A stretch of 64,000 bases of DNA, taken from a virus. Lineage: Duplodnaviria > Caudoviricetes. The stretch lies in IMG/VR virus record IMGVR_UViG_3300025889_000071; one strand, written 5' to 3'. The first letter of the stretch is position 1. Each line of letters begins with the position of its first letter. The notes below the pieces were generated by a model. That model had not been told where the DNA came from. It was given only the letters and a program-made list of their open reading frames with translations, and made no database searches. The position numbers and the translations under genes are program-made. Shown piece by piece: positions 8,972-31,556 of this stretch.

Positions 8972-8998
8972 TATAATTAGAATATTTGATTTGAATAT

Positions 8999-9577
8999 AT
9001 GTTTAATATTAAACAGGGGGATATTTTTCCTACCAGGTTTTATAGTGTAGATATTTTTGAGCACGATGAAAATCAAAAATATAAAAACTTTTTGATTGAT
9101 ATGTCGAAAAAGACACCCGGAACTGTGAGGAGTAATCGTGGTGGGTGGCAGAGTGAAACAAATTTGTGGGAACATGAAGTATTCAAACCACTACTAGAAA
9201 AGACGACGGCAATTACTCAAAGTATTATTGAAAATTTATCAAAGAATCGTCCACAGATGGTGATTCGTTCAATGTGGGGTAATATAAATCCAAAAGGTGG
9301 AATGAACTTTACCCATGTTCATCCATCTGGCTGGATGAGTGGAGTTTACTATATACAATTGCCACAGGGAACAGATGTAATTAACTTTGAGGATCCAAGA
9401 CCTGCAAGAATGATGGATTTTCAAATGTCTTGTATTGTGAACGATGAATACTTTGCACACAATCCTAAAGTTGGTGAACTGCTTTTGTTTCCTTCTTGGC
9501 TTCCACACTTTGTTCTTCCAAATACATCTGATGAAGAACGAATTTCAATCTCATTTAATATCGAACTAATAGTATGA
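8999..9577 (+). CDS. 2OG-Fe(II) oxygenase, TIGR02466-like
   Basis: HVHP...SGVYY...FEDPRP...LLLFPSWLPH...RISISFN gives an HxH...H...R double-stranded beta-helix signature. Confidence 0.85.
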   Translation: MFNIKQGDIFPTRFYSVDIFEHDENQKYKNFLIDMSKKTPGTVRSNRGGWQSETNLWEHEVFKPLLEKTTAITQSIIENLSKNRPQMVIRSMWGNINPKGGMNFTHVHPSGWMSGVYYIQLPQGTDVINFEDPRPARMMDFQMSCIVNDEYFAHNPKVGELLLFPSWLPHFVLPNTSDEERISISFNIELIV

Positions 9578-10233
9578 GCGTTTTAATTGCACTGCCTTGT
9601 TATGGTGGAATCGTTAGTGATAAGACTGCCAAAGGGTTATTTAATCTTGGAAAAGAATTAAGAACAAATCAAATTGATCATGGATTAATCACTCTGGCAA
9701 ATGAGAGTTTGATTACCAAAGGTCGGTCAAGAATTGCCAACTTCTTTATCAATAACACACAATATGAATATGTAATGTTTATTGATGCGGACATTGGATT
9801 TGAACCACAAGATGTATTAAAACTTTTATCATATCAAAGAGATATTGTTTGTGGAGCTTATCCTATGAAGAGTATTCCATTACAATACAATTATAATATT
9901 TCACAACCACCATTAGCAGAGGATGGATTGATTAAGATTGATAGTATTGGATTTGGGTTTGCTCTTATTCACCGTAGAGTTTTTGATAAAATTCGTGAGA
10001 ACTATGAGGATTTAAAATATACTCCTTCACTGGGACACTCATCTTATCCAATCACAGAAGCAGAATATCATAATTCATATCATTATTTTAATGAACTCAA
10101 AAAAGATATGGCATTCTTACCAGAGGATTTTTCATTCTTTGAGAGAGCAAGTAGTGTTGGATTTACATCATGGTTAGACACAAGTATTAAATTGTGTCAT
10201 GTTGGTTCTCATGTCTTCCAGGAGAATAAATAA
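9574..10233 (+). CDS. GT-A fold glycosyltransferase (GT2-like)
   Basis: VLIALPCY, ESLITKGRSRI, MFIDADIGF (DxD), EDFSFFER, LCHVG. Confidence 0.75.
   Translation: MSVLIALPCYGGIVSDKTAKGLFNLGKELRTNQIDHGLITLANESLITKGRSRIANFFINNTQYEYVMFIDADIGFEPQDVLKLLSYQRDIVCGAYPMKSIPLQYNYNISQPPLAEDGLIKIDSIGFGFALIHRRVFDKIRENYEDLKYTPSLGHSSYPITEAEYHNSYHYFNELKKDMAFLPEDFSFFERASSVGFTSWLDTSIKLCHVGSHVFQENK
10227..10232 (+). promoter_or_regulatory. Late promoter TAAATA
   Basis: Just upstream of the first Kelch-like gene. Confidence 0.6.
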
Positions 10234-10253
10234 AAAAAATAGTGTACTGATAA

Positions 10254-12176
10254 ATGTCTGGAGTTTTTGGTTTATCGGATGTAAGAACGGAGCAAATAGA
10301 TAGAACCTGGCCAGAATTTACGAATTATGGTTATTTTGTTGGTGGTGTAGCTCCTCCTGGATTTGCAGAGTCACGTATTGATCGATTTGAGATAGCAACG
10401 GAAACAATAAGTCAACCACCTAACTTTAGTCAGTATAGCTCTGGTCAAGCAATTTCGGATGCTGTAGAAGCTTCTTCATCAGAATATGGTTATATTGCTG
10501 GAGGTGATAATAGAGGAGGTAGTCCTGCAGCGAGAAGTTATATACGTAGAATTGATTTTTCACACGAACTTGATAGTGTTGTAGGGATCACACAAATTCC
10601 TGCCACACTACCTGCGAATCAGGACAACATGGCATCAATTTCCACCCCACAATATGCATATTTTGGTGGTGGTGCTGCTCCTTATGTGTGTAATATTCAT
10701 AGACTTGAATTCTCATCAGAAACAATGTCTACAGATGCTTCAAATCTCACACAAAATAGAGGATTTCTTGCAGGTGTATCTGGTTCTCAATATGGATATT
10801 TTTGTGGAGGATTTTCCACTCCACCTCCAACCAGACATTCTACAATTGATAGGATGGATTTTTCTACAGAAACTGGAAGTGTTCCTCCTGTTGAAGGTCA
10901 ATTGACAGTTGGAAGAAGTCACCTCAATTCTTTTGAGAGTTCAGAACATGGTTATATTGTTGGTGGTTTGACACCGGTTGTTTGTACCGTTGACCGATTA
11001 GATTTTTCTTCAGAAACTGTTGCGGCAACTACAGGAGTACCTGAAATAATAGCGGCAGGAATAGATTTTTCTGTTAAAGAATATGGTTATATTGGTGGTA
11101 ATGGCCCAGGAGCAAAATCCACTATCTATAGATTTGAGTTTTCATCCGAAACATTTTCAGCACCAGGAGCAATTTTAAGTAGTGTGAGGGGTTATGGTTC
11201 TGGAGTTAGAGACAGTAGTCGTATAAAACCAAATTCACTGAAAGGAACTGATATTGATGGAGTTCCTATTTCCAGCACTTATGGATATTTTATTGGTGGT
11301 TTTTCTTTTAGTACTCCACCTCCGGTCACTAGTTATCACACTACTATTGACCGCATCAATTATTCTACCGAAACTGTATCGTCTAATATATCTCCTAGAG
11401 GATATTTATCTTCACCAGGAAGAAATGGTGCAGGAGCAGTATCTAATTTCAATTATGGGTATGTTGCTGGTGGACTTTCTCCAATTAAAACAACAGTTGA
11501 AAAGATGGATTTTACTAATGAAATTACATCATTACCGGGAAATAATTTATCTCAAGCAAGAGCATATTTAGCAGGAGTTTACAATAATAATTATGGATAT
11601 TTTTGTGGAGGATTCCATCCAACACCAGCATATTATAGCACTATTGATCGTATTGATTTTTCTACAGAATCTGTATCAACTCCTCCGGTAAAAATGAATA
11701 ATGAATTGAGTATACCTAATGGTGGAACCGTATTTAATCCAAGTTATGCATATATAACTGGATTTAACGGATATGTTTGTACTATTGACCGATTAGAATT
11801 TTCTACAGAAACAATGGTAGAACCATCCCAGCAATTAACTAGAGCGGCTTTGGGTTTTGGTACATTGCAGAATTCAAATTATGGTTATTTTTGTTCTGGA
11901 AGAACTTCACCAACTGTGCGTCCGGCAGTCATAGATCGTATGGATTTTTCAAATGAAACTGTAAGTTCACCTATTGGCAATGTGTCTCAAGCAAGACCGG
12001 GTTTAGCAGGAGTTTACAATAATAATTATGGTTATCTTGGTGGAGGAGAAATACCACCACTTAGTCCTGATTATGTCTGTACAATTGACCGATTAGAATT
12101 TTCAAATGAAACAGTATCGGAACCAAGTTCAGAATTGACAAGAAGTAGAAGCAATGCCAGAGGCCTCTCAAACTAA
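10254..12176 (+). CDS. Kelch-like beta-propeller repeat protein A (12 repeats)
   Basis: 12 repeats of YGY(F/I)xGG...IDR(L/I)(D/E)FS.ET, arranged 6+6 around a linker TDIDGVPISS. Confidence 0.75.
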   Translation: MSGVFGLSDVRTEQIDRTWPEFTNYGYFVGGVAPPGFAESRIDRFEIATETISQPPNFSQYSSGQAISDAVEASSSEYGYIAGGDNRGGSPAARSYIRRIDFSHELDSVVGITQIPATLPANQDNMASISTPQYAYFGGGAAPYVCNIHRLEFSSETMSTDASNLTQNRGFLAGVSGSQYGYFCGGFSTPPPTRHSTIDRMDFSTETGSVPPVEGQLTVGRSHLNSFESSEHGYIVGGLTPVVCTVDRLDFSSETVAATTGVPEIIAAGIDFSVKEYGYIGGNGPGAKSTIYRFEFSSETFSAPGAILSSVRGYGSGVRDSSRIKPNSLKGTDIDGVPISSTYGYFIGGFSFSTPPPVTSYHTTIDRINYSTETVSSNISPRGYLSSPGRNGAGAVSNFNYGYVAGGLSPIKTTVEKMDFTNEITSLPGNNLSQARAYLAGVYNNNYGYFCGGFHPTPAYYSTIDRIDFSTESVSTPPVKMNNELSIPNGGTVFNPSYAYITGFNGYVCTIDRLEFSTETMVEPSQQLTRAALGFGTLQNSNYGYFCSGRTSPTVRPAVIDRMDFSNETVSSPIGNVSQARPGLAGVYNNNYGYLGGGEIPPLSPDYVCTIDRLEFSNETVSEPSSELTRSRSNARGLSN

Positions 12177-12179
12177 CAC

Positions 12180-12185
12180 TAAATA
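12180..12185 (+). promoter_or_regulatory. Late promoter TAAATA
   Basis: Upstream of the GT4-FkbM gene. Confidence 0.6.
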
Positions 12186-12206
12186 ATCAAAACTACATTA
12201 TTGTAT

Positions 12207-13844
12207 ATGAAGTCCGGAGCAACTGAAAGTTCTTTTTATTATCTTGCTCAACATTATACTTTTCCAGAGAATGTTGATGTTAAGAGAACGACGAATGAAA
12301 TTATAAAGTCCAATAAACAGTATAAAATTATCTGGGCTCATGATAATTGTGACCAGATGGGACACAAAGACCTTCCACAATATGTGAATAAAATTGATGG
12401 CATTGTTTGTGTTTCGAACTGGGAACGAGAGCAGTATATAAAGTATAAAAGAGCACCAGCAGAGAAACTTCATGTAATTCCAAACGGAGTTCATGATATG
12501 TTTCGTCCTTCTGGAAAACCAAAATCAAAAACTTGTATCTTTTTTTCTGCACCACATAAAGGAGTTGCACCTTTAGTTCCAATTTGGAAGGAAGTTATTA
12601 AACATCATCCAGATGCAAAACTCAAAGTGTTTTCTTCGATGTCTCTTTATGGTGATATTCAACCAGGAGAAGGTGACAATGAAACAATCACAGGACCAAA
12701 TGGATTAGAGCCATCACCATTTATTTCTGTTTATAAAGAACTTCAGAAACTTCCTGGTGTTGAGTATTCACCTTGTATTGATCGTGAAGAGTTGCTACCT
12801 CATATTCAGGATGCAGCTTTTTATATTCATCCCAATGTTTGGGAGGAAACTTTTTGTGTATCATTAGCAGAAGCAATGTCTTGTGGATGCTTTCCAATAA
12901 CAACAGACATGGGAGCACTTCCAGAAACGGCAAATGGAATTGGAAAGTTTATTCCAATGTCAGGAAAAAACACACCAAGAGGATGGATACCTGACGAAAC
13001 ATTTCATAAAAACTTTGCCGAAGAAATGATTCGTGCTTTTCATTTCTTTGATGTTGCAAGAGATGAATATTATCAGGCATCAGAACTGATATCAAATTAT
13101 GCAATAGAAAATTATAATTGGAAAAGAGTTGCTGGACTGTGGAAAAGTTATATTGAAAAGTATGATGATTATTATGAAAGATTTTCCGAAATCTTAATGA
13201 CTCCATATGATCATATTGATTATCTCTATCAGATGAAGTATGAGCAATCAATAAATCCAAAAGTGATTTATGATATTGGTTCCAATTGTTTGCACTGGTC
13301 AAAGGTTGCACAAATGGTATGGAAAGATTCTAATATTTTTCATGTTGATGGATATGACCAATTCGAATCTCTCTATAAAAATAAGAAAGTTAATTATGCC
13401 ATTGAGGTATTAAGTTCAGTAGATGATAAAGTTGTAACTTATTTTCAGAATGCCAGAAATCATGGAGGGTGTTCTTATTATGAATTAAACTATAAGGATT
13501 TTCCTTATAATCAAAATGCATTTAGAAATCAACATTACTCTGAAGTTAAGAGAAGGACAAAGACTTTAGATACTCTAATCAGAGAGAAAGGATGGCCAAA
13601 ACCTGACTTGATTAAGATGGATGTTCAGGGATGTGAATTAGATATTATCAAAGGTGCTGTTAGTGCTATTAAATATTGTCCGAATATTATTCTTGAGTTG
13701 CAAAACAAAGAGTATATGAAAGGTGCTCCAATGAGAGATGAAGTCATTTCTTATATGAAATCGATTGGATATGTTCTGTCTTCACACTTTACACAAAACT
13801 CATCTGATGCTGATGGAGATTATCACTTCTCCAAACATAAATAA
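12207..13844 (+). CDS. Glycosyltransferase (GT-B, GT4-like) fused to FkbM-family methyltransferase
   Basis: IIWAHD, VCVSNW, HVIPNG, EETFCVSLAEAMSCGCFPIT (GT-B ExxxxxxxE); C-terminal IYDIGS...TLDTL...PDLIKMDVQGCELDIIKG. Confidence 0.85.
   Translation: MKSGATESSFYYLAQHYTFPENVDVKRTTNEIIKSNKQYKIIWAHDNCDQMGHKDLPQYVNKIDGIVCVSNWEREQYIKYKRAPAEKLHVIPNGVHDMFRPSGKPKSKTCIFFSAPHKGVAPLVPIWKEVIKHHPDAKLKVFSSMSLYGDIQPGEGDNETITGPNGLEPSPFISVYKELQKLPGVEYSPCIDREELLPHIQDAAFYIHPNVWEETFCVSLAEAMSCGCFPITTDMGALPETANGIGKFIPMSGKNTPRGWIPDETFHKNFAEEMIRAFHFFDVARDEYYQASELISNYAIENYNWKRVAGLWKSYIEKYDDYYERFSEILMTPYDHIDYLYQMKYEQSINPKVIYDIGSNCLHWSKVAQMVWKDSNIFHVDGYDQFESLYKNKKVNYAIEVLSSVDDKVVTYFQNARNHGGCSYYELNYKDFPYNQNAFRNQHYSEVKRRTKTLDTLIREKGWPKPDLIKMDVQGCELDIIKGAVSAIKYCPNIILELQNKEYMKGAPMRDEVISYMKSIGYVLSSHFTQNSSDADGDYHFSKHK
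13838..13843 (+). promoter_or_regulatory. Late promoter TAAATA
   Basis: Upstream of the 13876 ORF. Confidence 0.55.
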
Positions 13845-13875
13845 AAAAAATTGAACTGATATCTATAGGAGTTCT

Positions 13876-14721
13876 ATGTCAAATAATTATAAAGAAATTG
13901 CTCTTGCAAAATCCGATGAAGTTCTTGATGAGAGTAATGAATTTATGCTCAAGGTTCTTGCGGAGTGTGATCGTTGGAAAGAATCTGAAAGAGAACTTGC
14001 ACAAGGAAGGTCAAACTTCCAGATTGAAAAGTTTATCGTTCATGATAATTTTACCATTCCATCAGCATTCAAAGCTGCAATTATCAACCGCAAGTCTGTG
14101 GCAGAGAACCTTCTAAATGGAATTCAGGATGCAAAGAAAATTGTAAGAGAGTTTCATTATAAGTGGGAAGGTAAAGATAAAACTCAACCAATCTGGTGGA
14201 AGAATCGTGAAGGTGGTGAAGACCTTTGTTGGTATGATATTGATGAATTCAATTTTCATCGTTTTATTGATGGATTGAATGCTGGATTCAAAGCACAGAC
14301 AACTGAACTTGAATTCTTTGATAAATTGATTGAAAGATTAATCGAATTGAACGGTGGTCATCCTCCAACAAAAGAAGAATTTGATGCCGATCAACCAGTT
14401 TATTGGGAAAGAAGATTTGCCAACCAGGCTCTTGATGAACTTCTTGCTGCACAAACAGGAGTCTCTGGTGGTAATATTCGTTCTATGAGAAGAGCAACCG
14501 CACCAACAGTTCTTGAGGATGATGTGAATCGTATTAAGGAAGGCTATGCAGATCCAAGCAATTCAATCGCATTCCTTGAGAGTCTTCAGAGACATGTTGC
14601 TTCTGGTATTGAGGAAATTAGTGGACTATCAAATAATATTCTTCAAGGAAGAAAGGAGCAAACAAAACAATTAAGTGAGGAAAAAGTTTCGTTATTTAAC
14701 GAAGAACTTCGCAAAAAATAA
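13876..14721 (+). CDS. Hypothetical alpha-helical / coiled-coil protein
   Basis: Long ORF with aggag SD, charged helical composition, GRSNFQIEKFIV motif; no function recognised. Confidence 0.75.
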   Translation: MSNNYKEIALAKSDEVLDESNEFMLKVLAECDRWKESERELAQGRSNFQIEKFIVHDNFTIPSAFKAAIINRKSVAENLLNGIQDAKKIVREFHYKWEGKDKTQPIWWKNREGGEDLCWYDIDEFNFHRFIDGLNAGFKAQTTELEFFDKLIERLIELNGGHPPTKEEFDADQPVYWERRFANQALDELLAAQTGVSGGNIRSMRRATAPTVLEDDVNRIKEGYADPSNSIAFLESLQRHVASGIEEISGLSNNILQGRKEQTKQLSEEKVSLFNEELRKK

Positions 14722-14725
14722 GTAA

Positions 14726-16579
14726 ATGCCATCAGATGTTTTTGGGTTAGATGTAGTTTATGATAGACAGGTCGATTCTAATTGGCCAGAGTCTGCGAAT
14801 TATGGTTACTTTGGTGGTGGTATTGCTCCACCTTTTGTTTGTACAATAGACCGCATAGATTTTTCTAGTGAAACTGTATCGGAACCAAGTAGTGAATTAA
14901 CTCAAGCAAGATATCTGTTAGCAGCAGTTTCTAATTCTAATTATGGTTACTTTGGTGGTGGTTATGCTCCACCACCTTTTGTTTGTACAATAGACCGATT
15001 AGATTTTTCTAGTGAGACCGTAACAGCACCAAGTAGTAATTTAACTCAAGCAAGAAACGGTTTAGCGGCAGTTTCTAATTCTAATTATGGTTACTTTGCT
15101 GGTGGTTTATTTAATTCATCTTATCTTTGTACAATCGACCGTATAGATTTTTCTAGTGAAACTGTATCGGAACCAAGTAGTGAATTAACTCAAACAAGAC
15201 AGGGTTTAGCAGCAGTCTCAAATTCTAATTATGGATACTTTGCTGGTGGTACAGCTCCACCTTTTGTTTGTGCCATTGACCGACTAGATTTTTCTAGTGA
15301 GACTGTAGCAGTGCCACCAGTAGGAGATCAATTAACTCAAGCAAGATATCAATTAACAGCAGTCTCAAATTCTAATTATGGATACTTTGCTGGTGGTACA
15401 GCTCCACCTTTTGTTTGTACCATTGACCGACTAGATTTTTCTAATGAGACTGTATCGGAACCAAGTAGTGAATTAACTCAAGCAAGATATATTTTAGCAG
15501 CAGTCTCAAATTCCAATTATGGTTACTTTGCTGGTGGTAGTGTTCCAGCTATTGTTTGTACCATTGACCGTTTAGATTTTTCTAATGAAACTGTATCGGA
15601 ACCAAGCAGCAACTTAACTCAAGCAAGAAGTTATTTAGCGGCAGTTTCTGATGGAAAATCAATAAACGCAAAAGGAGTTAAAAAAGGAACTGATGTTAAT
15701 GGAGTTCCCATCTCTAGCACTTATGGATACTTTGGTGGTGGTGATGCTCCAGGTGTGGGTGTAGTATGCACCATTGATCGTATTGATTTTTCAAATGAAA
15801 CGACATCAGTTCCATCAGTTGATAATCAATTAAGTGCTGCGAGGGATGATTTAACGGCAGTTTCTAATTCTAATTATGGATATTTTGCTGGTGGTTTTTC
15901 TCCACCTTTTATTTGTACTATTGACCGTTTAGATTTTTCTAACGAAATTACATCAATACCAAGTAGTCAATTGACTAGAAAAAGGGGAGATTTATCATCA
16001 CTCTCTAATTCAAATTATGGTTATTTTGGTGGTGGTGCTAATCCACTCAGTACTTCTACTGTTGATCGTATAGATTTTTCAAATGAAACTGTATCTGAAC
16101 CTAGTTCAGATTTAACTCAAGCACGGCATGAACTTGCGGCAGTATCTAGTTCTAGTTATGGATACTTTGCCGGAGGAAATCCCCTTCGTAGCACGATTGA
16201 TAGATTAGATTTTTCTAATGAAACTATAATTGTCCCTCCAGTAGGAAATCATTTACCACAGGCTAGATCATTATTATTTGGAGTTTCTGATTCTAATTAT
16301 GGTTACTTTGCTGGTGGTTCTCCTCCAGCACATTCTACTGTTGACCGTTTGGATTTTTCTAATGAGACTACATCAGCTCCATCACCAGAATTAGGAACGA
16401 CAAGATTAGGACTTTCTGGAGTTTCTAATTCTAATTATGGTTACTTTGCTGGTGGAGATAATCCTTCCATTGGCTTTCTCAGTAGTTTTGATCGCATAGA
16501 ATTTTCTACTGAGACTATTTCAGCACCAGCAAATAATTTACCTCAACCAAGAGGTACTTTAGCAGGAGTCTCAAACTAA
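14726..16579 (+). CDS. Kelch-like beta-propeller repeat protein B (12 repeats)
   Basis: 12 repeats of SNSNYGYF(A/G)GG...CTIDR(L/I)DFS(S/N)ETV..PSS.LTQAR, arranged 6+6 around linker TDVNGVPISS. Confidence 0.8.
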   Translation: MPSDVFGLDVVYDRQVDSNWPESANYGYFGGGIAPPFVCTIDRIDFSSETVSEPSSELTQARYLLAAVSNSNYGYFGGGYAPPPFVCTIDRLDFSSETVTAPSSNLTQARNGLAAVSNSNYGYFAGGLFNSSYLCTIDRIDFSSETVSEPSSELTQTRQGLAAVSNSNYGYFAGGTAPPFVCAIDRLDFSSETVAVPPVGDQLTQARYQLTAVSNSNYGYFAGGTAPPFVCTIDRLDFSNETVSEPSSELTQARYILAAVSNSNYGYFAGGSVPAIVCTIDRLDFSNETVSEPSSNLTQARSYLAAVSDGKSINAKGVKKGTDVNGVPISSTYGYFGGGDAPGVGVVCTIDRIDFSNETTSVPSVDNQLSAARDDLTAVSNSNYGYFAGGFSPPFICTIDRLDFSNEITSIPSSQLTRKRGDLSSLSNSNYGYFGGGANPLSTSTVDRIDFSNETVSEPSSDLTQARHELAAVSSSSYGYFAGGNPLRSTIDRLDFSNETIIVPPVGNHLPQARSLLFGVSDSNYGYFAGGSPPAHSTVDRLDFSNETTSAPSPELGTTRLGLSGVSNSNYGYFAGGDNPSIGFLSSFDRIEFSTETISAPANNLPQPRGTLAGVSN

Positions 16580-18470
16580 ATACAACATAAGGAAATAGAT
16601 ATCATGCCATCAGGAGTATTTGGTTTAGAAAAAACATATAAGAAGCAAAGAAAAAAAGATTGGCCAGAGTCTGCGAATTACGGTTATTCTGTGGGAACCA
16701 CAAATCCTACACTTGCACCACCAACTGGAGGAGCTTGTATTATTGATAGACTGGATCTTTCTACAGAAGTTGTTTCTAGTCCTGGATCAATTGCGAATTA
16801 TACTTATGCCATGTTTGACATGTCATCCCTAATTGGTAGGAATTATGGATATCTTGTCGGTGGAAAATCTCCATATAGTGCTGGTGTTCATTGTACAATA
16901 GTAAGACTTGATTTTTCAAATGAAACTTTTGAGGATATTGGTACTCATTTAAATTCATCTAAACAATGGACTTCTAGTGTCAACAGTCCGGAATATGGAT
17001 ACGTTTGTAGTGGTAGAGTTCCAACTCCAGCAGACATATCTACCATAGATAGATTGGATTTTTCTAGTGAAACTTTAACGTCTTCACTATCCAATCTTAC
17101 GACATCTAGAACAAATGCTGGGTCAACTTATTCGACACAATATGGATATATTGCTGCTGGTTTTGATGGCACATCTAATGTTGCTACAATAGATCGATTT
17201 GATTTTACCAACGAATCATCATCTGTGATTTCTGGAACATTAAATAATCCAGGCAGAACCGGATTATCTCAACATATACAAAGTCAGAGTTATGGATATG
17301 TTGCTAGTGGCAGTTCATCTTATCCCACCGTAGTGGATAAAATTGATTTTTCAAATGATAGTTTTTCAAGAACAACAGATATAACTGTAGGAAGAGGTTC
17401 TGCTGGAGGAGCATCTACTTTAAATTATGGATACTTATTGGGAGGTATGTTTCCATATCGTTCTGATATGGATAGAATAGACTTTTCAACGGACAGTGTA
17501 TCAACACCTTCTTCAACACAAACTTTGAATAATAGGGGAGGTTCTACAGTAATTGCGGGTGGAATAAACAAGAGTGCAAAATCAAGAAGATATTTTCTTG
17601 ATGTTGATGCTGTCCCTATAGGAAATGCTACTGGTTACTTTGCTGGTGGTGGTGCTCCGGCTGTTGTTTGTACAATCGACCGTATAGATTTTTCTAATGA
17701 GACTGTATCGGAACCAAGTAGTGAATTAACTCAAGCAAGATATCAGTTAGCAGCAGTCTCAAATTCGAATTATGGGTACTTTGCTGGCGGTTTTGCTCCA
17801 CCTCAAGTTTGTACAATAGACCGATTAGATTTTTCTAATGAGACTGTATCAGCACCAGGTAATGATTTAACTCAAGCAAGACAGTATTTAGCATCAGTCT
17901 CTAATTCTAATTATGGTTATTTTGGTGGTGGTGCTACTACTCCATCTTATGTTTGTACTATTGACCGATTAGATTTTTCTAATGAAACTGTATCAGAACC
18001 AAGTAGCAATTTAACTCAAGCAAGAAATCAATTAGCAGCAGTCTCAAATTCGAATTATGGTTACTTTGCTGGTGGTGGTCCAGGTAATGTTTGTACTATT
18101 GACCGACTAGATTTTTCTAATGAGACTGTATCGGAACCAAGTAGTGAATTAACTCAAGCAAGAACTGCTTTAGCAGCAGTCTCTAATTCTAATTATGGAT
18201 ACTTTGCTGGTGGGTGGGCCCCACCTCAACTTTGTACAATAGACCGACTAGATTTTTCTAATGAGACTGTATCGGAACCAAGTAGTGAATTAACTCAAGC
18301 AAGAAATGGTTCAGCAGCAGTCTCTAATTCTAATTATGGATACTTTGCTGGTGGTGCTACTCCATCTTATGTTTGTACTATTGACCGACTAGATTTTTCT
18401 AATGAGACTGTATCGGAACCAAGTAGTGAATTAACTCAAACAAGATATACTGCAGCAGGAGTCTCTGGTG
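14786..18470 (+). repeat. Dispersed/tandem ~141-nt coding repeats shared by Kelch-like genes B and C
   Basis: An identical 57-mer gaccgactagatttttctaatgagactgtatcggaaccaagtagtgaattaactcaa starts at 15425, 18101, 18242 and 18383. Confidence 0.95.
16577..16582 (+). promoter_or_regulatory. Late promoter TAAATA overlapping the stop codon
   Basis: Upstream of Kelch-like gene C. Confidence 0.6.
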
Positions 18471-19174
18471 GATGGGCTACTGCACCATCAATCGGACCAA
18501 GATCTGGACCAAGAACATCTGTCAATCCTGGTGGTGAAGGTGGTGGAGGTGGTGAAGGTGGTGGAGGTGCATCATCACAAATGACATTTAAGTATTATGG
18601 TTATGGATCAAATACGGGAACTTTATCCGTTCACTGGGCACCAGGACCACCCACTTCTAATACAATCAGTGCCGCACTTCCATTTACTGCCGATGGTTCA
18701 ACAGTAACATCAATCTCCGGACAAACGCATCCAGGACCAGGACAAACTTGGAAATCTGCTACTGTAGATTTAAGTCCATTATCACCGAGCACCGGACACT
18801 TTGTATTTAAATATCGTACTGGAACAAGTTTTAGAGGAGACTTCCAACTTGATGATATGGAATTCACACACTCTGGAGGAACTGATGATTTAGATCCGGA
18901 TTTGAAGAGAACTGCATCAACCGATAATTGGCAAAAATGGAATGCTGGCCCACCAGCAACATACAATACATCTTTCTTTTCTAATGTGACAGTTTCAACT
19001 TCTGCTCCTGGTGGATGGAACTATGATGCCGGAGGAACACCATCTGGTTCTACTGGAACGACATCAGACTCTGATGGGAGTCCAACTGGATATTACATCT
19101 ATGCAGAAACTTCTTCACCAAACTATCCACAGAAATATATGTGGTTGAGAACTGCAACTCCGGTTACGATTTAG
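16604..19174 (+). CDS. Kelch-like repeat protein C (12 repeats) with Gly/Pro linker and C-terminal MAM-like domain
   Basis: 12 YGY..GG repeats, GGEGGGGGEGGGG linker, then F.YY.YG..TGTL.V, W....VDL, GDFQLDD and TPSGSTG...GYYIYAETS motifs. Confidence 0.8.
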   Translation: MPSGVFGLEKTYKKQRKKDWPESANYGYSVGTTNPTLAPPTGGACIIDRLDLSTEVVSSPGSIANYTYAMFDMSSLIGRNYGYLVGGKSPYSAGVHCTIVRLDFSNETFEDIGTHLNSSKQWTSSVNSPEYGYVCSGRVPTPADISTIDRLDFSSETLTSSLSNLTTSRTNAGSTYSTQYGYIAAGFDGTSNVATIDRFDFTNESSSVISGTLNNPGRTGLSQHIQSQSYGYVASGSSSYPTVVDKIDFSNDSFSRTTDITVGRGSAGGASTLNYGYLLGGMFPYRSDMDRIDFSTDSVSTPSSTQTLNNRGGSTVIAGGINKSAKSRRYFLDVDAVPIGNATGYFAGGGAPAVVCTIDRIDFSNETVSEPSSELTQARYQLAAVSNSNYGYFAGGFAPPQVCTIDRLDFSNETVSAPGNDLTQARQYLASVSNSNYGYFGGGATTPSYVCTIDRLDFSNETVSEPSSNLTQARNQLAAVSNSNYGYFAGGGPGNVCTIDRLDFSNETVSEPSSELTQARTALAAVSNSNYGYFAGGWAPPQLCTIDRLDFSNETVSEPSSELTQARNGSAAVSNSNYGYFAGGATPSYVCTIDRLDFSNETVSEPSSELTQTRYTAAGVSGGWATAPSIGPRSGPRTSVNPGGEGGGGGEGGGGASSQMTFKYYGYGSNTGTLSVHWAPGPPTSNTISAALPFTADGSTVTSISGQTHPGPGQTWKSATVDLSPLSPSTGHFVFKYRTGTSFRGDFQLDDMEFTHSGGTDDLDPDLKRTASTDNWQKWNAGPPATYNTSFFSNVTVSTSAPGGWNYDAGGTPSGSTGTTSDSDGSPTGYYIYAETSSPNYPQKYMWLRTATPVTI

Positions 19175-19177
19175 AAC

Positions 19178-19183
19178 TAAATA
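19178..19183 (+). promoter_or_regulatory. Late promoter TAAATA
   Basis: Upstream of the prolyl-hydroxylase-like gene. Confidence 0.6.
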
Positions 19184-19211
19184 TTTTTAAAGATTGAGAA
19201 ATTGAGTTTGA

Positions 19212-19871
19212 ATGAATCATTTACTTGGTAATATCCTTATTCAACCAAATGTTGTGACAAAGGAAGGATGTAAATATCTCACAGAATATGTAAAGAAGGC
19301 ACCCAAAATGAGGATGGGTGTTTATGATGCCGAAAAATCAAATGAAACAAAAAAGGATGAATCAAAAGTAGATCCAAATGTAAGAGATGTAGAGTGTGCC
19401 GATATACAACCAATCATGGCAGACGTTAAATCTCTTTATGATGATATGGTATATAATGTCATCAATCCTTTTTATGACTTTTATATCAACGATAGTGAAG
19501 TTCCCCAGTTTTTATATTATAGGGAAGGAGGACACTACAAACCTCATTATGATGGTGAAGCCTTATGGGTAAATCCTGATGGAACAAAGCAATGGAAAAA
19601 ATCTATTGATAGAGATATTTCTACTGTTTTATTTTTGAATGATGATTTTGAGGGTGGAGAGTTTGTATTTCCAAAATACAGAATTCGTATTAAACCAGAA
19701 CCAGGCCTTCTGATCGCATTTCCATCAACACATCATTATCTGCATGGAGTAGAACCAGTTAAATCTGGTGAGAGAATCGTCAGTGTTTGTTGGATGAGAG
19801 TAAAAGGAGTTCCAACAAAGGATGAGCAAGATAAACAGATTGCAGATAAATATGGAATAGAGGTCTATTAA
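19212..19871 (+). CDS. 2OG-Fe(II) oxygenase, prolyl 4-hydroxylase-like
   Basis: QFLYYREGGHYKPHYD, ISTVLFLNDDFEGGEFVF, LHGVEPVKSGER: HxD...H...R. Confidence 0.88.
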   Translation: MNHLLGNILIQPNVVTKEGCKYLTEYVKKAPKMRMGVYDAEKSNETKKDESKVDPNVRDVECADIQPIMADVKSLYDDMVYNVINPFYDFYINDSEVPQFLYYREGGHYKPHYDGEALWVNPDGTKQWKKSIDRDISTVLFLNDDFEGGEFVFPKYRIRIKPEPGLLIAFPSTHHYLHGVEPVKSGERIVSVCWMRVKGVPTKDEQDKQIADKYGIEVY

Positions 19872-19877
19872 TTTAAA

Positions 19878-20432
19878 ATGACACAACTTTTAAAACATTA
19901 TTGGGTAGATAGGGATAATACCAGTGTCTTTGCAATTTCTTCATCAATGTGGAGTCGTCCCAGATTTGGATATGTGGCTCCTAATATCGCAGGTCTTGAG
20001 ATCGTTCATAGAATAACTGATAGTAATGGTATTCCTTTTTGCTTATCGACTTGCCCCGATGATACTACCATCACAGAAGAAGATGGTCTTGAAATTCTGA
20101 CTCAAGCAGAATGGGATGCAGAAATTGCTACTTATGATACCGCACAAGAAACAAAAAGATATGTTGAGGTAAGAAGTATTCGAGATAAACTTCTGTCCGA
20201 GACTGATTGGATTGTCACAAAATCGTTGGAGACAGGTGTTGCTCTGTCATCAGAATTTACAACCTGGAGAACTGCTTTAAGAAATCTTCCAAATGGTTCT
20301 GAATTTCCACTTACTCTTCCTGATGCACCAGTTGCAGTTTCTGTAAGTAATGCAGAATATCTGGCACAAGTAACTCAAATTCCGATGATTAATGATCCAA
20401 ATGTTGTGGAAGAAGAATTACCTGGTGAGTAA
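19878..20432 (+). CDS. Tail fibre assembly chaperone-like protein
   Basis: VRSIRDKLLSETDWIV...WRTALRNLP matches the R.R..LL..TDW...YRQALRDLP tail-assembly chaperone pattern. Confidence 0.75.
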   Translation: MTQLLKHYWVDRDNTSVFAISSSMWSRPRFGYVAPNIAGLEIVHRITDSNGIPFCLSTCPDDTTITEEDGLEILTQAEWDAEIATYDTAQETKRYVEVRSIRDKLLSETDWIVTKSLETGVALSSEFTTWRTALRNLPNGSEFPLTLPDAPVAVSVSNAEYLAQVTQIPMINDPNVVEEELPGE

Positions 20433-20999
20433 GGAATAACACTTCTCATTTCTATCATAAGCATAGTCAGCATACTCACCATTCTTTCTGACATAGTGTA
20501 GAAAGAGTTGCATAAACCTATCGTTCTTATGTGTTCGTAGTGGTGACCTCCAGTGAGGAACGATAGTTCCAAGATATGCAACACCATGTCCAACAGGTGT
20601 CACGACCTCTCTACGCTTCCCTGTGAGGTCTTTAAGTTTAATAGGCCACTCTGCATCACCACAGATATTCATCGTTACAGAGACCTCACAGGAGGGTCTG
20701 TCAGTGTGACAATTCATCCATCCTTTATTATGATATGTTGTAGTAAACCAATATGATGGAATGAGTTCCTCTCCAAGTAGTTCTTCAAGAATAGGTTTCA
20801 TTCTCTTCACAACAAATGTGGAGGACTCTGGAGCATAACAACACATCACATTTCCTCTTTCAGGATCATAATGAGTTTTAAGACCTCCAAGATCATGAAT
20901 TGCACCCATTAGATTCTGATATTTAATTTGTATTGCTTCTTGTTTACTAATAATGTCTGGTATATAATGCCAACCTTTCTTTGCAAATGATGAAGTCAT
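20418..20999 (-). CDS. 2OG-Fe(II) oxygenase (only clear minus-strand gene)
   Basis: HTDRPSCEVSVTMNI...VPHWRSPL...QLFLHYV; minus-strand TAAATA at 21020-21025. Confidence 0.85.
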   Translation of the reverse strand: MTSSFAKKGWHYIPDIISKQEAIQIKYQNLMGAIHDLGGLKTHYDPERGNVMCCYAPESSTFVVKRMKPILEELLGEELIPSYWFTTTYHNKGWMNCHTDRPSCEVSVTMNICGDAEWPIKLKDLTGKRREVVTPVGHGVAYLGTIVPHWRSPLRTHKNDRFMQLFLHYVRKNGEYADYAYDRNEKCYSLLTR

Positions 21000-21019
21000 A
21001 TATAAATTTCATGTTATAA

Positions 21020-21025
21020 TATTTA
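21020..21025 (-). promoter_or_regulatory. Late promoter TAAATA on minus strand
   Basis: Forward tattta, 20 nt upstream of the minus-strand start codon. Confidence 0.55.
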
Positions 21026-21042
21026 GAAAAATCTTATTGATT

Positions 21043-22284
21043 ATGAATTATAAGTTTAGCATTATCACCCCAGCACACAAAAAAAATCCATACCTTGAAG
21101 AACTTTATGATAGTATTTTGGCACAAACATATTCAAATTGGGAATGGGTTCTTTGGTTGAACAATCATTTAAAAGAGCATAATATATCAGAAAGAATTAG
21201 GAATGATGATAGGGTAAAGATTTTCAGGACAGAAAATACCTCAAAAAATATTGGATATCATAAACATCATGCGTTTCATAAAGGAACGGGTGATGTTCTG
21301 GTTGAAGTTGATTATGACGATATGATTACTTCAAATTGTTTAGAAGAATTGAATAAAGCATATCAAGATGAGAATATTGGATTTGCATACAGTAATGCTA
21401 TCCAATATAACATGAAAAAGGAATTTATTCCATATAATCCGGCCCATGGTTGGTCATATTCGAAAGTCAAGTTTCGTGAAGAAGAAAGATATGTAATGAA
21501 TTCTTGGCATCCAAGTAGTCATAGTCTTTCATTTATTTGGTATGCTCCAGATCATGTGAGGTCTTGGAGATCTGATTTATATAAAAAAGTTGGAGGACAT
21601 AATCAAGAACTTGAAATATGTGATGATCATGAATTAATGATAAGGACATATTTAAATACAAATATGTATTTTATAGAAAAACCGCTTTATGTTTATAGAG
21701 TAACTGGCAACAATACTTATTTGAAAAAAAATTCACAGATTCAAAAAGAAACTGTAAGACTTGCTTATGAGAATGTTTATGCTCTTGCTGAACATGATGC
21801 TGAAAAAAATAATTTACTAAAAGTAGATCTTGGTGGAGGTTTATACCCCAGGGAAGGATATATGACAATCGATCAACATGATGCGGATATCATTTGTGAT
21901 TTAAATGATGGAATTCCTCTTCCAGATAATAGTGTTGGAGTTTTGAATGCCAGTCATGTGATTGAGCATTTGAGAGATCCAATTAAAACAATGAGAGAGA
22001 TACATCGGGTTCTTGCACATGGTGGTTGGGCTTTAATTGAAGTTCCTTCTACAGATGGACGCGGGGCATGGCAAGATCCGACTCATGTGAGTTTTTGGAA
22101 TGAACATAGTTTTTGGTATTATACTGACAAGAGTAAAGCAGAATTTATTAGGAATAAAGATATTAGATTTCAATCATATCGCCTAGATACATGGGAAATG
22201 TCTCCCCATATTCCTGTTGTTACCACAAATTTAGTTGCAATTAAAGAAGGTGGAAAAAGACTTCCAGGTATTTTAAATATTTGA
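21043..22284 (+). CDS. GT2 glycosyltransferase fused to class I SAM-dependent methyltransferase
   Basis: FSIITPAH, VEVDYDD, ICDDHELMIR; then KVDLGGG, SHVIEHL, EIHRVLAHGG, QDPTH. Confidence 0.85.
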   Translation: MNYKFSIITPAHKKNPYLEELYDSILAQTYSNWEWVLWLNNHLKEHNISERIRNDDRVKIFRTENTSKNIGYHKHHAFHKGTGDVLVEVDYDDMITSNCLEELNKAYQDENIGFAYSNAIQYNMKKEFIPYNPAHGWSYSKVKFREEERYVMNSWHPSSHSLSFIWYAPDHVRSWRSDLYKKVGGHNQELEICDDHELMIRTYLNTNMYFIEKPLYVYRVTGNNTYLKKNSQIQKETVRLAYENVYALAEHDAEKNNLLKVDLGGGLYPREGYMTIDQHDADIICDLNDGIPLPDNSVGVLNASHVIEHLRDPIKTMREIHRVLAHGGWALIEVPSTDGRGAWQDPTHVSFWNEHSFWYYTDKSKAEFIRNKDIRFQSYRLDTWEMSPHIPVVTTNLVAIKEGGKRLPGILNI

Positions 22285-22285
22285 T

Positions 22286-22876
22286 ATGAATTATTTTTTA
22301 AAGAATCAAAAACTCAATGAGTCTCCAAGTCCAACATTATGGGTTGTAGATAATTTTTATGATGATCCACATTCTATTAGAAATTTTGCATTGGAACAAA
22401 ATTTCATTTCTGACAGTGGATATAAAGGAAAGAGAACTGAACATCAATATGAAATTCCTGGAACAAAGGAAAGATTTGAGATGATTATGAATAAAAAAAT
22501 TACTGGATGGACAGACACATATACAATGTGTGGAAGATTTCAGTATTGCACTTGTGAAGACCCATTAGTATATCATGCAGATTATCAAAGATGGGCCGCT
22601 ACTGTTTACCTAACACCAGATGCTCCGTATGAGTGTGGAACATCTTTACTTGCACATAAAGAAACAAGGATTAGGCATGTTAGTGTTGAAGGATCTGATG
22701 TAATTTGGTCTAAAAAGTTTTTAGATCCTACACCTTGGGATCATATTGATGTTGTTGGCAATGTTTTTAATCGATTAGTCATATGGGATGCAAAGTGCCC
22801 TCATGCTGCGTCTAAATATTTTGGATATGATAAATATGACTCTAGATTATTCCATATGTTCTTTTTCGACACTTAA
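22286..22876 (+). CDS. 2OG-Fe(II) oxygenase-like protein (DUF6445-like)
   Basis: VVDNFYDDP, YHADYQRWAATVYLTPDAP, NVFNRLVIWD..PHAA, RLFHMFFF. Confidence 0.75.
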   Translation: MNYFLKNQKLNESPSPTLWVVDNFYDDPHSIRNFALEQNFISDSGYKGKRTEHQYEIPGTKERFEMIMNKKITGWTDTYTMCGRFQYCTCEDPLVYHADYQRWAATVYLTPDAPYECGTSLLAHKETRIRHVSVEGSDVIWSKKFLDPTPWDHIDVVGNVFNRLVIWDAKCPHAASKYFGYDKYDSRLFHMFFFDT

Positions 22877-26338: not shown

Positions 26339-26351
26339 AAGGAGTTTTGTT

Positions 26352-27230: not shown

Positions 27231-27241
27231 GTTTTTTGGAT

Positions 27242-27249
27242 TATAAATA
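27242..27249 (+). promoter_or_regulatory. Late promoter TATAAATA
   Basis: Exact consensus 9 nt before the endonuclease start. Confidence 0.75.
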
Positions 27250-27258
27250 ATTAAAAAA

Positions 27259-27828: not shown

Positions 27829-28129
27829 ACTTAATAAAAATATTAAAGTAAAAACTCCTAGTGGATTTAAATATTTTTCTGGAATTCAAAAAGTTTACAA
27901 ACCATTTTATCATTGGATAATATTTGATGATGGAACAGAAATAAAATGCTCTGACAATCATTCTTTTGGGAAAGAACAAATAAAAGCATCAATGATTAAA
28001 GTTGATGATTTTTTTCAGGGGAAAAAAGTAGTTTATAATGAAATAGTAGAAGAAGAAATATACCTTTATGACTTACTTGATGTTGGTGAAGATAATCTTT
28101 ATTTTTCAAATGGAATAATATCTCACAAT
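27821..28129 (+). mobile_element. Split intein C fragment (103 aa, ends SHN; Cys+1 at 28130)
   Basis: Blocks B, F and G present; terminal His-Asn followed by Cys. Confidence 0.92.
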
Positions 28130-31521: not shown

Positions 31522-31531
31522 TAATATTATC

Positions 31532-31537
31532 TAAATA
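31532..31537 (+). promoter_or_regulatory. Late promoter TAAATA
   Basis: Upstream of gp19. Confidence 0.7.
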
Positions 31538-31556
31538 AAAAAAGGAGGAAAAATCA

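What the first reader, a model, noticed from the sequence alone, without database searches (positions are those of the whole stretch)
8999..22876. Candidate phage-encoded virion-protein hydroxylation/glycosylation/methylation pathway
Seen: four unrelated 2OG-Fe(II) oxygenase types (8999, 19212, 20418 minus, 22286), three glycosyltransferases (9574, 12207, 21043), two fused methyltransferases and a fibre chaperone, interleaved with the collagen and three Kelch-like genes, most behind TAAATA late promoters. Known: hydroxylation followed by glycosylation occurs on Dictyostelium Skp1, plant extensins and mimivirus collagen; such oxygenase/GT clusters recur in cyanophage hypervariable islands with unknown substrates. 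Inference: late timing and interleaving favour structural proteins over DNA as substrates. The collagen lacks Pro, but the Kelch loops are rich in PP/PPP (APPF, APPPF, STPPP), making them the likely prolyl-hydroxylase targets.
Basis: partly seen in the sequence, partly recalled or inferred. Interest (0 to 1): 0.8.

Follow-up and report, generated by a model that had tools for sequence, protein, structure and literature searches.

The report
Cyanophage fibre cassette with tailoring enzymes
A marine cyanophage carries a mobile block of genes in which tail-fibre-like adhesins are always accompanied by hydroxylases, sugar-adding enzymes and methyl-adding enzymes. This suggests, without proving it, that the phage decorates its own host-binding proteins, which would explain some very common but unexplained viral enzyme genes.

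Summary
The window is a T4-like cyanomyovirus, and 8999-22876 lies in the island between g16 and g17.

The region encodes:
- a proline-free collagen-like fibre;
- three paralogous Kelch-type double-propeller proteins;
- four sequence-unrelated 2OG-Fe(II)-oxygenase-type proteins, of which two are firm, one is confirmed by fold, and one rests on a motif only;
- three glycosyltransferases, two of them fused to methyltransferases;
- a fibre assembly chaperone;
- a conserved helical protein of unknown function.

Late-promoter-like TAAATA motifs precede 8 of the 12 module genes examined.

New here: this is a conserved, mobile cassette rather than a chance mixture. It recurs in the same gene order in more than 100 viral contigs, in phage S-SKS1, and at about 25% propeller identity in marine virus AG-345-L05, at different genome positions. 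Where enough flank was available, the P4H-like oxygenase was present in 69 of 69 loci, a propeller gene in 48 of 48, and the helical protein in 32 of 32. The periphery varies like a glycan-diversity locus.

Interpretation: partly supported. The enzymes are clearly linked to the fibre and propeller genes, but the substrate is unproven. The methyltransferases most likely methylate sugars. The PP loops are not the best-conserved prolines. The main rival is remodelling of host surface glycans. I rate it a new variant of virus-encoded structural-protein modification.

The parts
4109..8971 (+). Collagen-like fibre, 1620 aa. Gly-X-Gln/Thr triplets with no Pro in the repeats. Its C-terminal ~230 aa form the conserved 5' edge of the cassette.
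   Evidence: PF01391 at 422 bits. Triplet composition. The C-terminus is 33-65% identical in cassette loci and in S-SKS1. The N-terminus resembles the S-SCSM1 long tail fibre.
8999..9577 (+). Oxygenase 1, PF13759/TIGR02466 type. It is an optional member of the cassette.
   Evidence: Present in only a minority of loci.
9574..10233 (+). GT-A-fold glycosyltransferase with an invariant D71-x-D73. It resembles STIV A197.
   Evidence: phrog_1574. The profile hits PDB 2c0n at E 4e-6.
10254..12176 (+). Kelch-like propeller protein K1, about 12 blades.
   Evidence: phrog_19111, E 2e-106. Blade dissection.
12207..13844 (+). GT4 glycosyltransferase fused to an FkbM methyltransferase.
   Evidence: PF00534, PF13692 and PF13439 plus PF05050; TIGR01444. 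Found in 28 of 32 loci with enough flank.
13876..14721 (+). Conserved 281-aa helical protein of unknown function. In other phages it is fused to the C-terminus of a GT4.
   Evidence: No family hit. AF2 pLDDT 87, with only a prefoldin-beta-like hairpin as a lead. GT4 fusions occur in P0241, P0244, P0247 and P0264. Found in 32 of 32 loci.
14726..16579 (+). Kelch-like propeller protein K2: 12 blades of 47-48 aa arranged as two six-blade halves.
   Evidence: PF24681 at 69.7 bits, above its cut-off; phrog_19111, E 6e-190. Blades.
16604..19174 (+). Kelch-like propeller protein K3 with a Gly-rich linker and a C-terminal MAM-like domain.
   Evidence: phrog_19111, E 7e-141; PF00629 MAM at 28.2 bits. 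Sequence.
19212..19871 (+). P4H-like 2OG-Fe(II) oxygenase (H112-x-D114...H178). It always follows the last propeller gene.
   Evidence: PF13640 at 60 bits. PDB sequence hits to 5c5t, 5iax and 3itq. Found in 69 of 69 loci. It is 45% identical in AG-345-L05.
19878..20432 (+). Tail fibre assembly chaperone.
   Evidence: PF16778 at 30.8 bits, above its cut-off; phrog_4912, E 6e-27.
20418..20999 (-). PHD-type 2OG-Fe(II) oxygenase. Databases annotate it as 'ferrochelatase'. It is convergent with the chaperone gene.
   Evidence: phrog_2954. Invariant HxD...H. AF2 pLDDT 94.7. Foldseek hits 4j25/4iw3 at E 7e-10, PHD2 and 6t8m.
21043..22284 (+). GT2 glycosyltransferase fused to a class I methyltransferase. 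It belongs to the variable periphery of the cassette.
   Evidence: PF00535 at 54.6 bits and PF08241 at 36.9 bits. Found only in near-identical contigs.
22286..22876 (+). DUF6445 protein, a probable 2OG oxygenase. In other loci it is fused to FkbM, other methyltransferase or GT17 domains.
   Evidence: PF20043. Fusions. H97-x-D99...H173 invariant. Atlas lead.
10227..10232 (+). Late-promoter-like TAAATA motif. This is one example of eight; the others start at 12180, 13838, 16577, 19178, 19847 and 22274 on the plus strand and lie at 21020-21025 on the minus strand.
   Evidence: ATAAATA occurs 23 times on the plus strand and once on the minus strand of the window.

Best explanation
This is a mobile, late-expressed 'decorated adhesin' cassette of marine cyanomyoviruses.

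Composition:
- Host-binding hardware: the distal part of a collagen-like fibre; one to six paralogous double six-bladed Kelch-type propeller proteins with a shared N-terminal anchor motif; and a fibre assembly chaperone.
- A fixed core of soluble tailoring enzymes: a P4H-like oxygenase, a PHD-like oxygenase, a small GT-A glycosyltransferase, and a GT4 joined to an FkbM methyltransferase and/or a conserved helical domain.
- A variable periphery: further GTs, methyltransferases, sulfotransferases, DUF6445 oxygenase fusions and sugar-nucleotide enzymes.

Inferred mechanism: late in infection, in the cytoplasm, the oxygenases hydroxylate residues in exposed loops of the propellers and/or the fibre. 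The GTs build a short glycan, O-methylated or in some phages sulfated, on these proteins before they are assembled onto the virion. The variable periphery diversifies that glycan.

Shown: gene identities, conserved synteny, movement of the cassette as a unit, promoter motifs and solubility.

Inferred: the substrate, the modified residues and the order of reactions.
For: 1. Synteny is kept over wide divergence.
- 31 loci were found through K2 and 80 through oxygenase 3.
- Where enough flank was available, the P4H-like gene was present in 69 of 69 loci, a propeller gene in 48 of 48, the 281-aa protein in 32 of 32, and GT4-FkbM in 28 of 32.
- S-SKS1 is collinear.
- AG-345-L05 keeps the fibre C-terminus, propellers, GT-A, GT4, the 281-aa protein, DUF6445 and P4H although its propellers are only 23-27% identical.

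2. The cassette sits at different genome places.
- Between g16 and g17 in the window, upstream of g14 in L111 and L112, and beside nrdC in S-SKS1.
- The linkage is therefore not a by-product of one island.

3. Looser versions recur elsewhere.
- S-CAM4 has fibre, 2OG oxygenase, chaperone, 2OG oxygenase.
- ACG-2014f has collagen, GT, 2OG oxygenase, tail fibre.

4. Domain fusions tie the unknown proteins to glycan chemistry.
- GT4 with the 281-aa domain.
- FkbM, another methyltransferase or GT17 with DUF6445.

5. The periphery looks like a glycan-diversity locus.

6. Late-promoter-like motifs are as frequent before these genes as before canonical late genes.

7. No module protein has a membrane segment or a signal peptide.

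8. The propeller blades carry conserved loop prolines (86%, 71%) and an N-E-T triplet.

9. The oxygenases' nearest structures are protein prolyl hydroxylases.

10. A 2OG oxygenase was detected in a cyanomyovirus virion proteome (PMC12801897).
Against: - There is no direct evidence that the propeller proteins are in the virion or that any protein is modified.
- Conserved loop prolines may be purely structural.
- The GT families seen here (GT2, GT4, GT25, GT11, WavE) are typical of LPS and polysaccharide synthesis.
- Cyanomyoviruses carry many 2OG oxygenases (24 in S-SCSM1, PMC9602691), so some adjacency to fibre genes is expected by chance.
- Distant homologs (about 30% identity) of oxygenase 3 lie among replication genes.
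- The fold matches of oxygenase 3 also include small-molecule enzymes such as SnoN, SnoK and HalB.
- The GTs are absent from the S-SKS1 copy.
Confidence: 0.5

Rival explanations
1. Host-surface remodelling. The GT, methyltransferase, sulfotransferase and oxygenase genes alter the host's LPS, O-antigen or other envelope glycan during infection. This could mask receptors, stop progeny from re-adsorbing to debris, or exclude competitors. On this view they travel with the receptor-binding genes because receptor use and receptor modification co-evolve.
For: The GT families are those of LPS and polysaccharide pathways: GT2, GT4, GT25, GT11, WavE, DegT and a GFO-type oxidoreductase. Published interpretations of cyanophage GTs favour cell-wall modification (PMC12801897). 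A GT4 with a methyltransferase and a coiled-coil-like protein recalls O-antigen chain-terminating systems (my own knowledge, not tested).
Against: The cassette has no membrane protein, flippase, initiating transferase or transporter. Late-promoter-like motifs suggest expression at virion assembly. The protein-hydroxylase-like oxygenases and a fibre chaperone are fixed members. The phage has a lytic T4-like backbone.
Confidence: 0.2
2. Co-travelling but functionally separate genes. The oxygenases are general cyanophage 'auxiliary' genes serving 2-oxoglutarate drawdown and NtcA signalling, DNA repair, or hydroxylation of host translation factors. The GTs serve DNA or other targets. The cassette structure reflects only joint horizontal transfer within a recombination hot spot.
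For: Sullivan et al. 2010 proposed 2OG/NtcA and DNA-repair roles (PMC3037559). Oxygenases are numerous and scattered in cyanomyoviruses. Distant homologs of oxygenase 3 lie near gp45 and dam. The top structural match of oxygenase 3 is an EF-Tu prolyl hydroxylase.
Against: Gene order and membership are kept down to about 25% propeller identity and at three or more genome locations. Hitchhiking genes would not be expected to survive that. Each enzyme gene carries its own late-promoter-like motif. GT-methyltransferase fusions do not fit DNA glucosylation, and the Tet_JBP hit is below threshold and lies under the P4H match.
Confidence: 0.12
3. Fibre maturation without protein glycosylation. The oxygenases and the chaperone (and perhaps the prefoldin-like 281-aa protein) help fold or stabilise the propellers and the fibre. 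The GT and methyltransferase set makes a separate product, such as a free or virion-associated oligosaccharide that the propellers bind as lectins.
For: Kelch and MAM domains are common ligand-binding modules. The 281-aa protein's best structural match is prefoldin beta, though at Z 7.1 this is only a lead. The GT content varies and is missing in S-SKS1, whereas the oxygenases, the chaperone and the 281-aa protein are fixed.
Against: The 281-aa domain is fused to GT4 enzymes in other phages, which links it to glycan chemistry. GT-A and GT4 are also retained in the deeply diverged AG-345-L05 cassette.
Confidence: 0.1

Closest known systems
Chlorovirus PBCV-1: viral prolyl 4-hydroxylase (vCPH, A085R) and A064R, a GT-GT-methyltransferase protein that builds the methylated capsid glycan (my own knowledge; vCPH structure 5c5t)
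   Same: A virus encodes a small soluble P4H, and GTs fused to a sugar methyltransferase, that act in the cytoplasm on viral structural proteins. The window's P4H-like protein hits 5c5t by sequence at E 1e-7. GT-methyltransferase fusions are present.
   Different: The host is a bacterium and the virus is a tailed phage. The presumed targets are beta-propeller adhesins and a Pro-free collagen, not a capsid protein or PAPK repeats. There are three further oxygenase types. The enzymes and targets form one mobile cassette. No biochemical evidence exists here.
Mycobacteriophage virion glycosylation (Che8, Corndog and Myrna type; my own knowledge, with later papers listed)
   Same: Phage-encoded GTs located with late or structural genes decorate the phage's own virion proteins.
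   Different: There the capsid and tail-tube C-termini are glycosylated and no oxygenases are involved. Here the association is with fibre and propeller genes, and with hydroxylases and methyltransferases, and it is untested.
Mimivirus collagen modification (L230 lysyl hydroxylase/glucosyltransferase) and glycosylated fibrils; Bacillus BclA collagen-like glycoprotein; Riftia Thr-glycosylated collagen
   Same: Collagen-like surface fibres are hydroxylated and/or O-glycosylated. Thr in the Y position of Gly-X-Y can carry the sugar. The window's fibre has Thr at 72 of about 300 Y positions.
   Different: The repeats contain almost no Lys or Pro, so the classical collagen hydroxylation targets are nearly absent. 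No L230-type bifunctional enzyme is present.
Dictyostelium/Toxoplasma Skp1 pathway: PhyA prolyl hydroxylase followed by sequential cytoplasmic GTs (my own knowledge)
   Same: A soluble PHD-type hydroxylase is coupled with soluble GTs acting on a folded cytoplasmic protein. Oxygenase 3 matches the Dictyostelium PHD structure 6t8m.
   Different: No GT60 or GT77 homologs were seen. The target is different. Attachment of a sugar to Hyp is purely hypothetical here.
STIV A197 viral GT-A glycosyltransferase (PDB 2c0n)
   Same: A small viral GT-A enzyme with a DxD motif. It is the only solved relative of the 9574 gene family.
   Different: It comes from an archaeal virus. Similarity covers about 100 residues, and its substrate is also unproven.

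Membership tests
2OG-Fe(II) oxygenase superfamily (19212-19871) | Family profile above threshold, and an HxD...H iron triad | tested here: met
   PF13640 at 60.3 bits against a cut-off of 27. H112-x-D114 and H178 are present. PDB relatives are P4Hs.
2OG-Fe(II) oxygenase superfamily (20418-20999, minus strand) | Double-stranded beta-helix fold with an invariant HxD...H | tested here: met
   AF2 pLDDT 94.7. Foldseek gives E 7e-10 to 4e-7 against PPHD, PHD2 and vCPH. H98, D100 and H149 are invariant in 33 sequences.
2OG-Fe(II) oxygenase superfamily (8999-9577) | Family profile above threshold; canonical HxD/E...H triad | tested here: inconclusive
   PF13759 at 97 bits and TIGR02466 at 125 bits are both met. 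However, the likely metal motif reads H106-x-H108...H170 rather than HxD. No fold or activity test was done.
2OG-Fe(II) oxygenase superfamily (22286-22876, DUF6445) | DSBH fold with an HxD...H triad | tested here: inconclusive
   H97-x-D99...H173 is invariant in 7 sequences. The Atlas feature search leads to PF13640 clusters at 0.91-0.92. hhalign against oxygenase 3 and a PDB profile search found nothing.
Protein prolyl 4-hydroxylase | Hydroxylates peptidyl proline in a defined substrate | not testable with these tools
   Only resemblance is available. Candidate prolines are conserved in blade loops.
Virus-encoded structural-protein glycosylation system | Virus-encoded soluble GTs, some fused to sugar-tailoring domains | tested here: met
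   GT-A, GT4-FkbM and GT2-methyltransferase are present. None has a membrane segment.
Virus-encoded structural-protein glycosylation system | Glycan covalently attached to a virion protein | not testable with these tools
   This needs virion glycoproteomics.
Kelch-type beta-propeller | Tandem blades of about 44-56 aa with a GG doublet; family profile | tested here: met
   K2 scores 69.7 bits on PF24681, above its cut-off of 50. K1 scores 29.3 bits, below it, and K3 has no Kelch Pfam hit, but all three match phrog_19111. Blades of 47-48 aa have the YGYF-GG and DRLDF motifs. The fold was not modelled.
Phage tail fibre assembly chaperone (PF16778) | Family profile above threshold | tested here: met
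   30.8 bits against a cut-off of 26.6; phrog_4912, E 6e-27. Its client is unknown.
T4-type late gene | TATAAATA-like motif shortly upstream of the gene | tested here: met
   [A/C]TAAATA lies 21-38 nt upstream of 7 genes, plus one at -12. It is enriched over random positions (3.3%) and shows the same strand bias as canonical late genes. Timing itself was not measured.

The most novel reading that the evidence does not exclude
Cyanomyoviruses run a complete cytoplasmic protein hydroxylation and glycosylation pathway on their own receptor-binding proteins. PHD/P4H-type oxygenases hydroxylate conserved loop residues of the Kelch-type propeller adhesins (and perhaps Asn, Asp or Thr positions of the Pro-free collagen fibre). 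Phage GTs then build an O-methylated or sulfated glycan on them. The interchangeable GT, methyltransferase, sulfotransferase and DUF6445 periphery generates glycan 'serotypes' of the virion. This would be the first hydroxylase-coupled protein glycosylation system known in a bacteriophage. It would also assign a function to part of the very abundant, cryptic viral P4H-like and 2OG-oxygenase 'auxiliary' genes in the ocean.
Probability: 0.3. Interest if true: 0.85.

Novelty: new variant of a known kind. Interest (0 to 1): 0.62.

Why it matters
2OG-Fe(II) oxygenases and P4H-like genes are among the most common unexplained genes of marine phages.
[quoted passage not shown] - The standing hypotheses are metabolic (2OG and nitrogen signalling) or DNA repair (PMC3037559).

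This cassette gives a concrete and testable alternative for one well-defined subset: maturation or decoration of host-binding proteins. The candidate substrates are encoded next door, and a cultured phage (S-SKS1) carries the core.

If it is true, virion surface chemistry, and not only protein sequence, would take part in cyanophage host range and in escape from grazers or from binding to decoys. It would also extend virus-encoded protein glycosylation from giant viruses and mycobacteriophages to the most abundant ocean myoviruses.

Tried and rejected
- No whole genome is held for the window.
- The 281-aa protein stays unassigned:
  - No significant fold match in PDB Foldseek (best E 0.5), AFDB clusters (only uncharacterised entries) or the Atlas (TM below 0.4).
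  - VIA-align places prefoldin beta first at Z 7.1, within the range expected for any helical hairpin.
  - PDB sequence, Pfam, PHROG and NCBIfam searches gave nothing, and the Atlas feature search gave nothing.
- DUF6445 compared with oxygenase 3 by hhalign was not significant, and its profile found nothing in the PDB.
- The exact T4 late promoter TATAAATA is not enriched (4 found, 5.1 expected). Only the shorter [A/C]TAAATA core is informative.
- DNA modification was considered and set aside. The Tet_JBP match of the P4H-like protein is below threshold and lies under the stronger P4H family match. The GTs are fused to sugar-type methyltransferases.
- The collagen as a classical P4H or lysyl-hydroxylase substrate was rejected: the triplets contain no Pro and almost no Lys.
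- Megablast of the region found only S-SKS1, at 76% identity over 10% of the query.
- No paper was found that links phage tail fibres with hydroxyproline or with cyanophage P4H substrates.


Full report
**What the window is.**
- PHROG and Pfam scans show T4-like structural genes in the usual cyanomyovirus order.
  - These are neck protein gp14 (445-1878), gp15 (1917-2921) and small terminase gp16 (2935-3363), then an island.
  - After the island come large terminase gp17 (from 26325), sheath gp18, portal gp20, scaffold and major capsid protein.
- The terminase N-terminal part is 92% identical to Synechococcus phage S-SCSM1.
- No isolate genome resembles the island at the DNA level except S-SKS1, at 76% over 10% of the query.
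- The finding therefore lies in the g16-g17 island, whose flanking genes are virion proteins confirmed by mass spectrometry in S-SCSM1.

**Checking the observation.**
- The collagen-like protein (4109-8971) scores 422 bits on PF01391. About 300 triplets read Gly-(Ala/Asn/Asp/His)-(Gln/Thr), with no Pro at X or Y and only 2 Lys.
- Oxygenase 1 (8999) is PF13759/TIGR02466.
- Oxygenase 2 (19212) is PF13640. Its nearest solved relatives by sequence are the PBCV-1 viral collagen prolyl hydroxylase and Bacillus anthracis P4H.
- Oxygenase 3 (20418-20999, minus strand) has no Pfam hit and carries the database label 'ferrochelatase'.
  - An alignment of 33 homologs shows invariant H98-x-D100...H149.
  - A confident model (pLDDT 94.7) matches Pseudomonas PPHD, human PHD2, a Dictyostelium PHD and PBCV-1 vCPH. 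It also matches small-molecule oxygenases.
- The fourth protein (22286, DUF6445) has invariant H97-x-D99...H173 and a language-model lead to PF13640 clusters.
- The four proteins share no detectable pairwise similarity.
- GT 9574 is below the GT2 threshold, but its family profile hits the STIV A197 GT-A structure (E 4e-6) and it has an invariant DxD.
- 12207 is GT4 fused to an FkbM methyltransferase, and 21043 is GT2 fused to Methyltransf_11.
- 19878 is a tail fibre assembly chaperone.
- The three Kelch-like genes are paralogs in phrog_19111.
- A TAAATA core lies 12-50 nt upstream of 7 of 11 plus-strand cassette genes and of the minus-strand oxygenase. That compares with 7 of 16 canonical structural genes, 4 of 27 other genes and 3.3% of random positions. 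ATAAATA occurs 23 times on the coding strand and once on the other.

**The propeller proteins.**
- K2 consists of 12 blades of 47-48 aa in two groups of six separated by a linker. K1 and K3 are similar.
- K3 adds a Gly-rich linker and a MAM-like domain.
- All three start with the same ~20-residue motif (MPSGVFGL...WPE), as expected for alternative proteins that dock to one site.
- From 543 unique blades in 66 ORFs, the consensus is YGYF-[GA]GG, loop 1, [C/S]TIDRLDF-SNET-x-S-x-P...LTQAR..LAAVS.
It has Pro in 71% of blades and a second Pro in 41%.
- Loop 2 has Pro in 86% of blades, and the N-E-T triplet is present at 74%, 92% and 94% per position.
- Both loop prolines persist in propellers that are only about 25% identical.
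- Candidate sites therefore exist and are conserved, but conservation alone does not separate a structural role from a modification site.

**The main new result: a conserved mobile cassette.**
- S-SKS1, a different genus, carries the same genes in the same order across its record ends.
  - The order is fibre C-terminus, oxygenase 1 (67%), propellers, the 281-aa protein (68%), propellers, oxygenase 2 (in two frames in the deposit), chaperone (48%) and a convergent oxygenase 3 (80%).
  - It has no GTs but has a sulfotransferase among the propeller genes.
- In IMG/VR, 31 loci found through K2 and 80 found through oxygenase 3 show the same order.
  - With enough flank, oxygenase 2 was present in 69 of 69 loci and a propeller gene in 48 of 48.
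  - The 281-aa protein was present in 32 of 32, GT4-FkbM in 28 of 32 and GT-A in 10 of 32.
- Marine virus AG-345-L05 (Kyanoviridae) keeps the set at much deeper divergence. It has the fibre C-terminus, six propeller segments (23-27%), DUF6445 twice, GT-A (54%), GT4 (43%), the 281-aa protein (40%) and oxygenase 2 (45%).
- The cassette sits between g16 and g17 in the window, upstream of g14 in L111 and L112, and beside nrdC and thyX in S-SKS1. It therefore moves as a unit.
- Looser versions recur with other fibre types.
  - S-CAM4 has short tail fibre, 2OG oxygenase, chaperone, PF13640 oxygenase.
  - ACG-2014f has collagen protein, GT, 2OG oxygenase, tail fibre.

**What the fusions and the periphery say.**
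- The 281-aa protein is highly conserved, with 524 relatives, and is mostly helical. It has no informative fold match.
- In other phages the same domain is fused to the C-terminus of a GT4, in the place occupied here by FkbM.
- DUF6445 is elsewhere the C-terminal domain of FkbM-, methyltransferase-FkbM- and GT17-containing proteins.
- Beyond oxygenase 3, the loci carry an interchangeable set of genes:
  - FkbM methyltransferases (8 of 53 clusters);
  - GT2, GT7C, GT11, GT25 and GT47-like domains;
  - sulfotransferases, a DegT aminotransferase, a carbamoyltransferase, a GFO-type oxidoreductase and WavE;
  - further fibre genes.
- This is the signature of a locus that builds and diversifies a glycan. 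The methyltransferases are therefore best read as sugar O-methyltransferases, as in PBCV-1 A064R (my own knowledge), not as protein methyltransferases.
- No cassette protein has a membrane segment or signal peptide.

**Interpretation.**
- The comparative data make a functional link between the enzymes and the fibre and propeller genes likely.
- The most economical mechanism is cytoplasmic hydroxylation and glycosylation of these proteins before assembly. I put it at 0.5.
- Three steps are inferred rather than shown: that the propellers are virion components, which residues are modified, and whether sugar is attached to protein at all.
- The main rival is remodelling of a host surface glycan (0.2). 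The GT families and published opinion favour it. The lack of any membrane component, the late motifs, and the fixed presence of protein-hydroxylase-like enzymes and a chaperone count against it.
- Pure hitchhiking of general auxiliary genes (0.12) fits the published 2OG and DNA-repair ideas. It also fits the scattered distant homologs. It does not fit the depth and mobility of the synteny.
- A fourth option (0.1) is fibre maturation by the oxygenases with a separate, non-protein glycan product.

**Comparison with known systems and novelty.**
- Virus-encoded hydroxylation and glycosylation of structural proteins is known for chloroviruses and mimivirus. Phage-encoded virion glycosylation is known for mycobacteriophages.
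- I found nothing that links phage fibres with hydroxylases, or that assigns substrates to cyanophage oxygenases.
- I rate this a new variant of a known kind.
- Earlier notes of this scan on the same stretch made the same proposal. They are not independent evidence.

Noticed in passing
window 26325-28984: The large terminase gene is in two pieces, 26325-27230 and 27821-28984. They are 92% and 87% identical to the two halves of the intact S-SCSM1 gene. A 189-aa homing-endonuclease-like ORF (27259-27828, phrog_314) lies between them, and the first ~100 residues of the second piece do not match TerL. I did not test this.
   Followed up: no
window 18578-19174 (K3 residues ~660-856): A MAM-like adhesion domain (PF00629, 28.2 bits, matching only the second half of the profile) follows a Gly/Glu-rich linker at the end of the third propeller protein.
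   Followed up: partly
window 14665-18498: The propeller blades are 141-144-nt DNA repeats shared within and between K2 and K3, at 60-85% identity over 130-300 nt.
   Followed up: partly
L003 (S-SKS1) 31122-31783: The S-SKS1 ortholog of the P4H-like oxygenase is split over two frames and annotated as two ORFs (residues 1-141 and 141-219 of the window protein). This is either a sequencing error or a natural null allele, which matters if S-SKS1 is used for experiments.
   Followed up: no
window 20418-20999 and public annotations: This protein family (phrog_2954/3531; Sullivan's 'hyp. with ferrochelatase domain') is annotated as 'ferrochelatase' in many cyanophage records. The model and the invariant HxD...H show that it is a 2OG-Fe(II)-oxygenase fold.
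   Followed up: yes
window 3383-4041: Two small Ser/Thr-rich ORFs lie ahead of the collagen gene. The first matches phrog_3304, 'L-shaped tail fibre protein assembly'. In L061 and L110 the pair recurs directly after oxygenase 3, so it may mark the junctions of consecutive fibre cassettes.
   Followed up: no
L117 (AG-345-L05) 6309-19174: The distant propeller homologs carry N-x-T triplets at two fixed places in each blade (G-N-x-T-x-G-Y and [FY]-S-N-[DE]-T). The window proteins keep only the second. This could be a glycosylation sequon or a structural motif.
   Followed up: no
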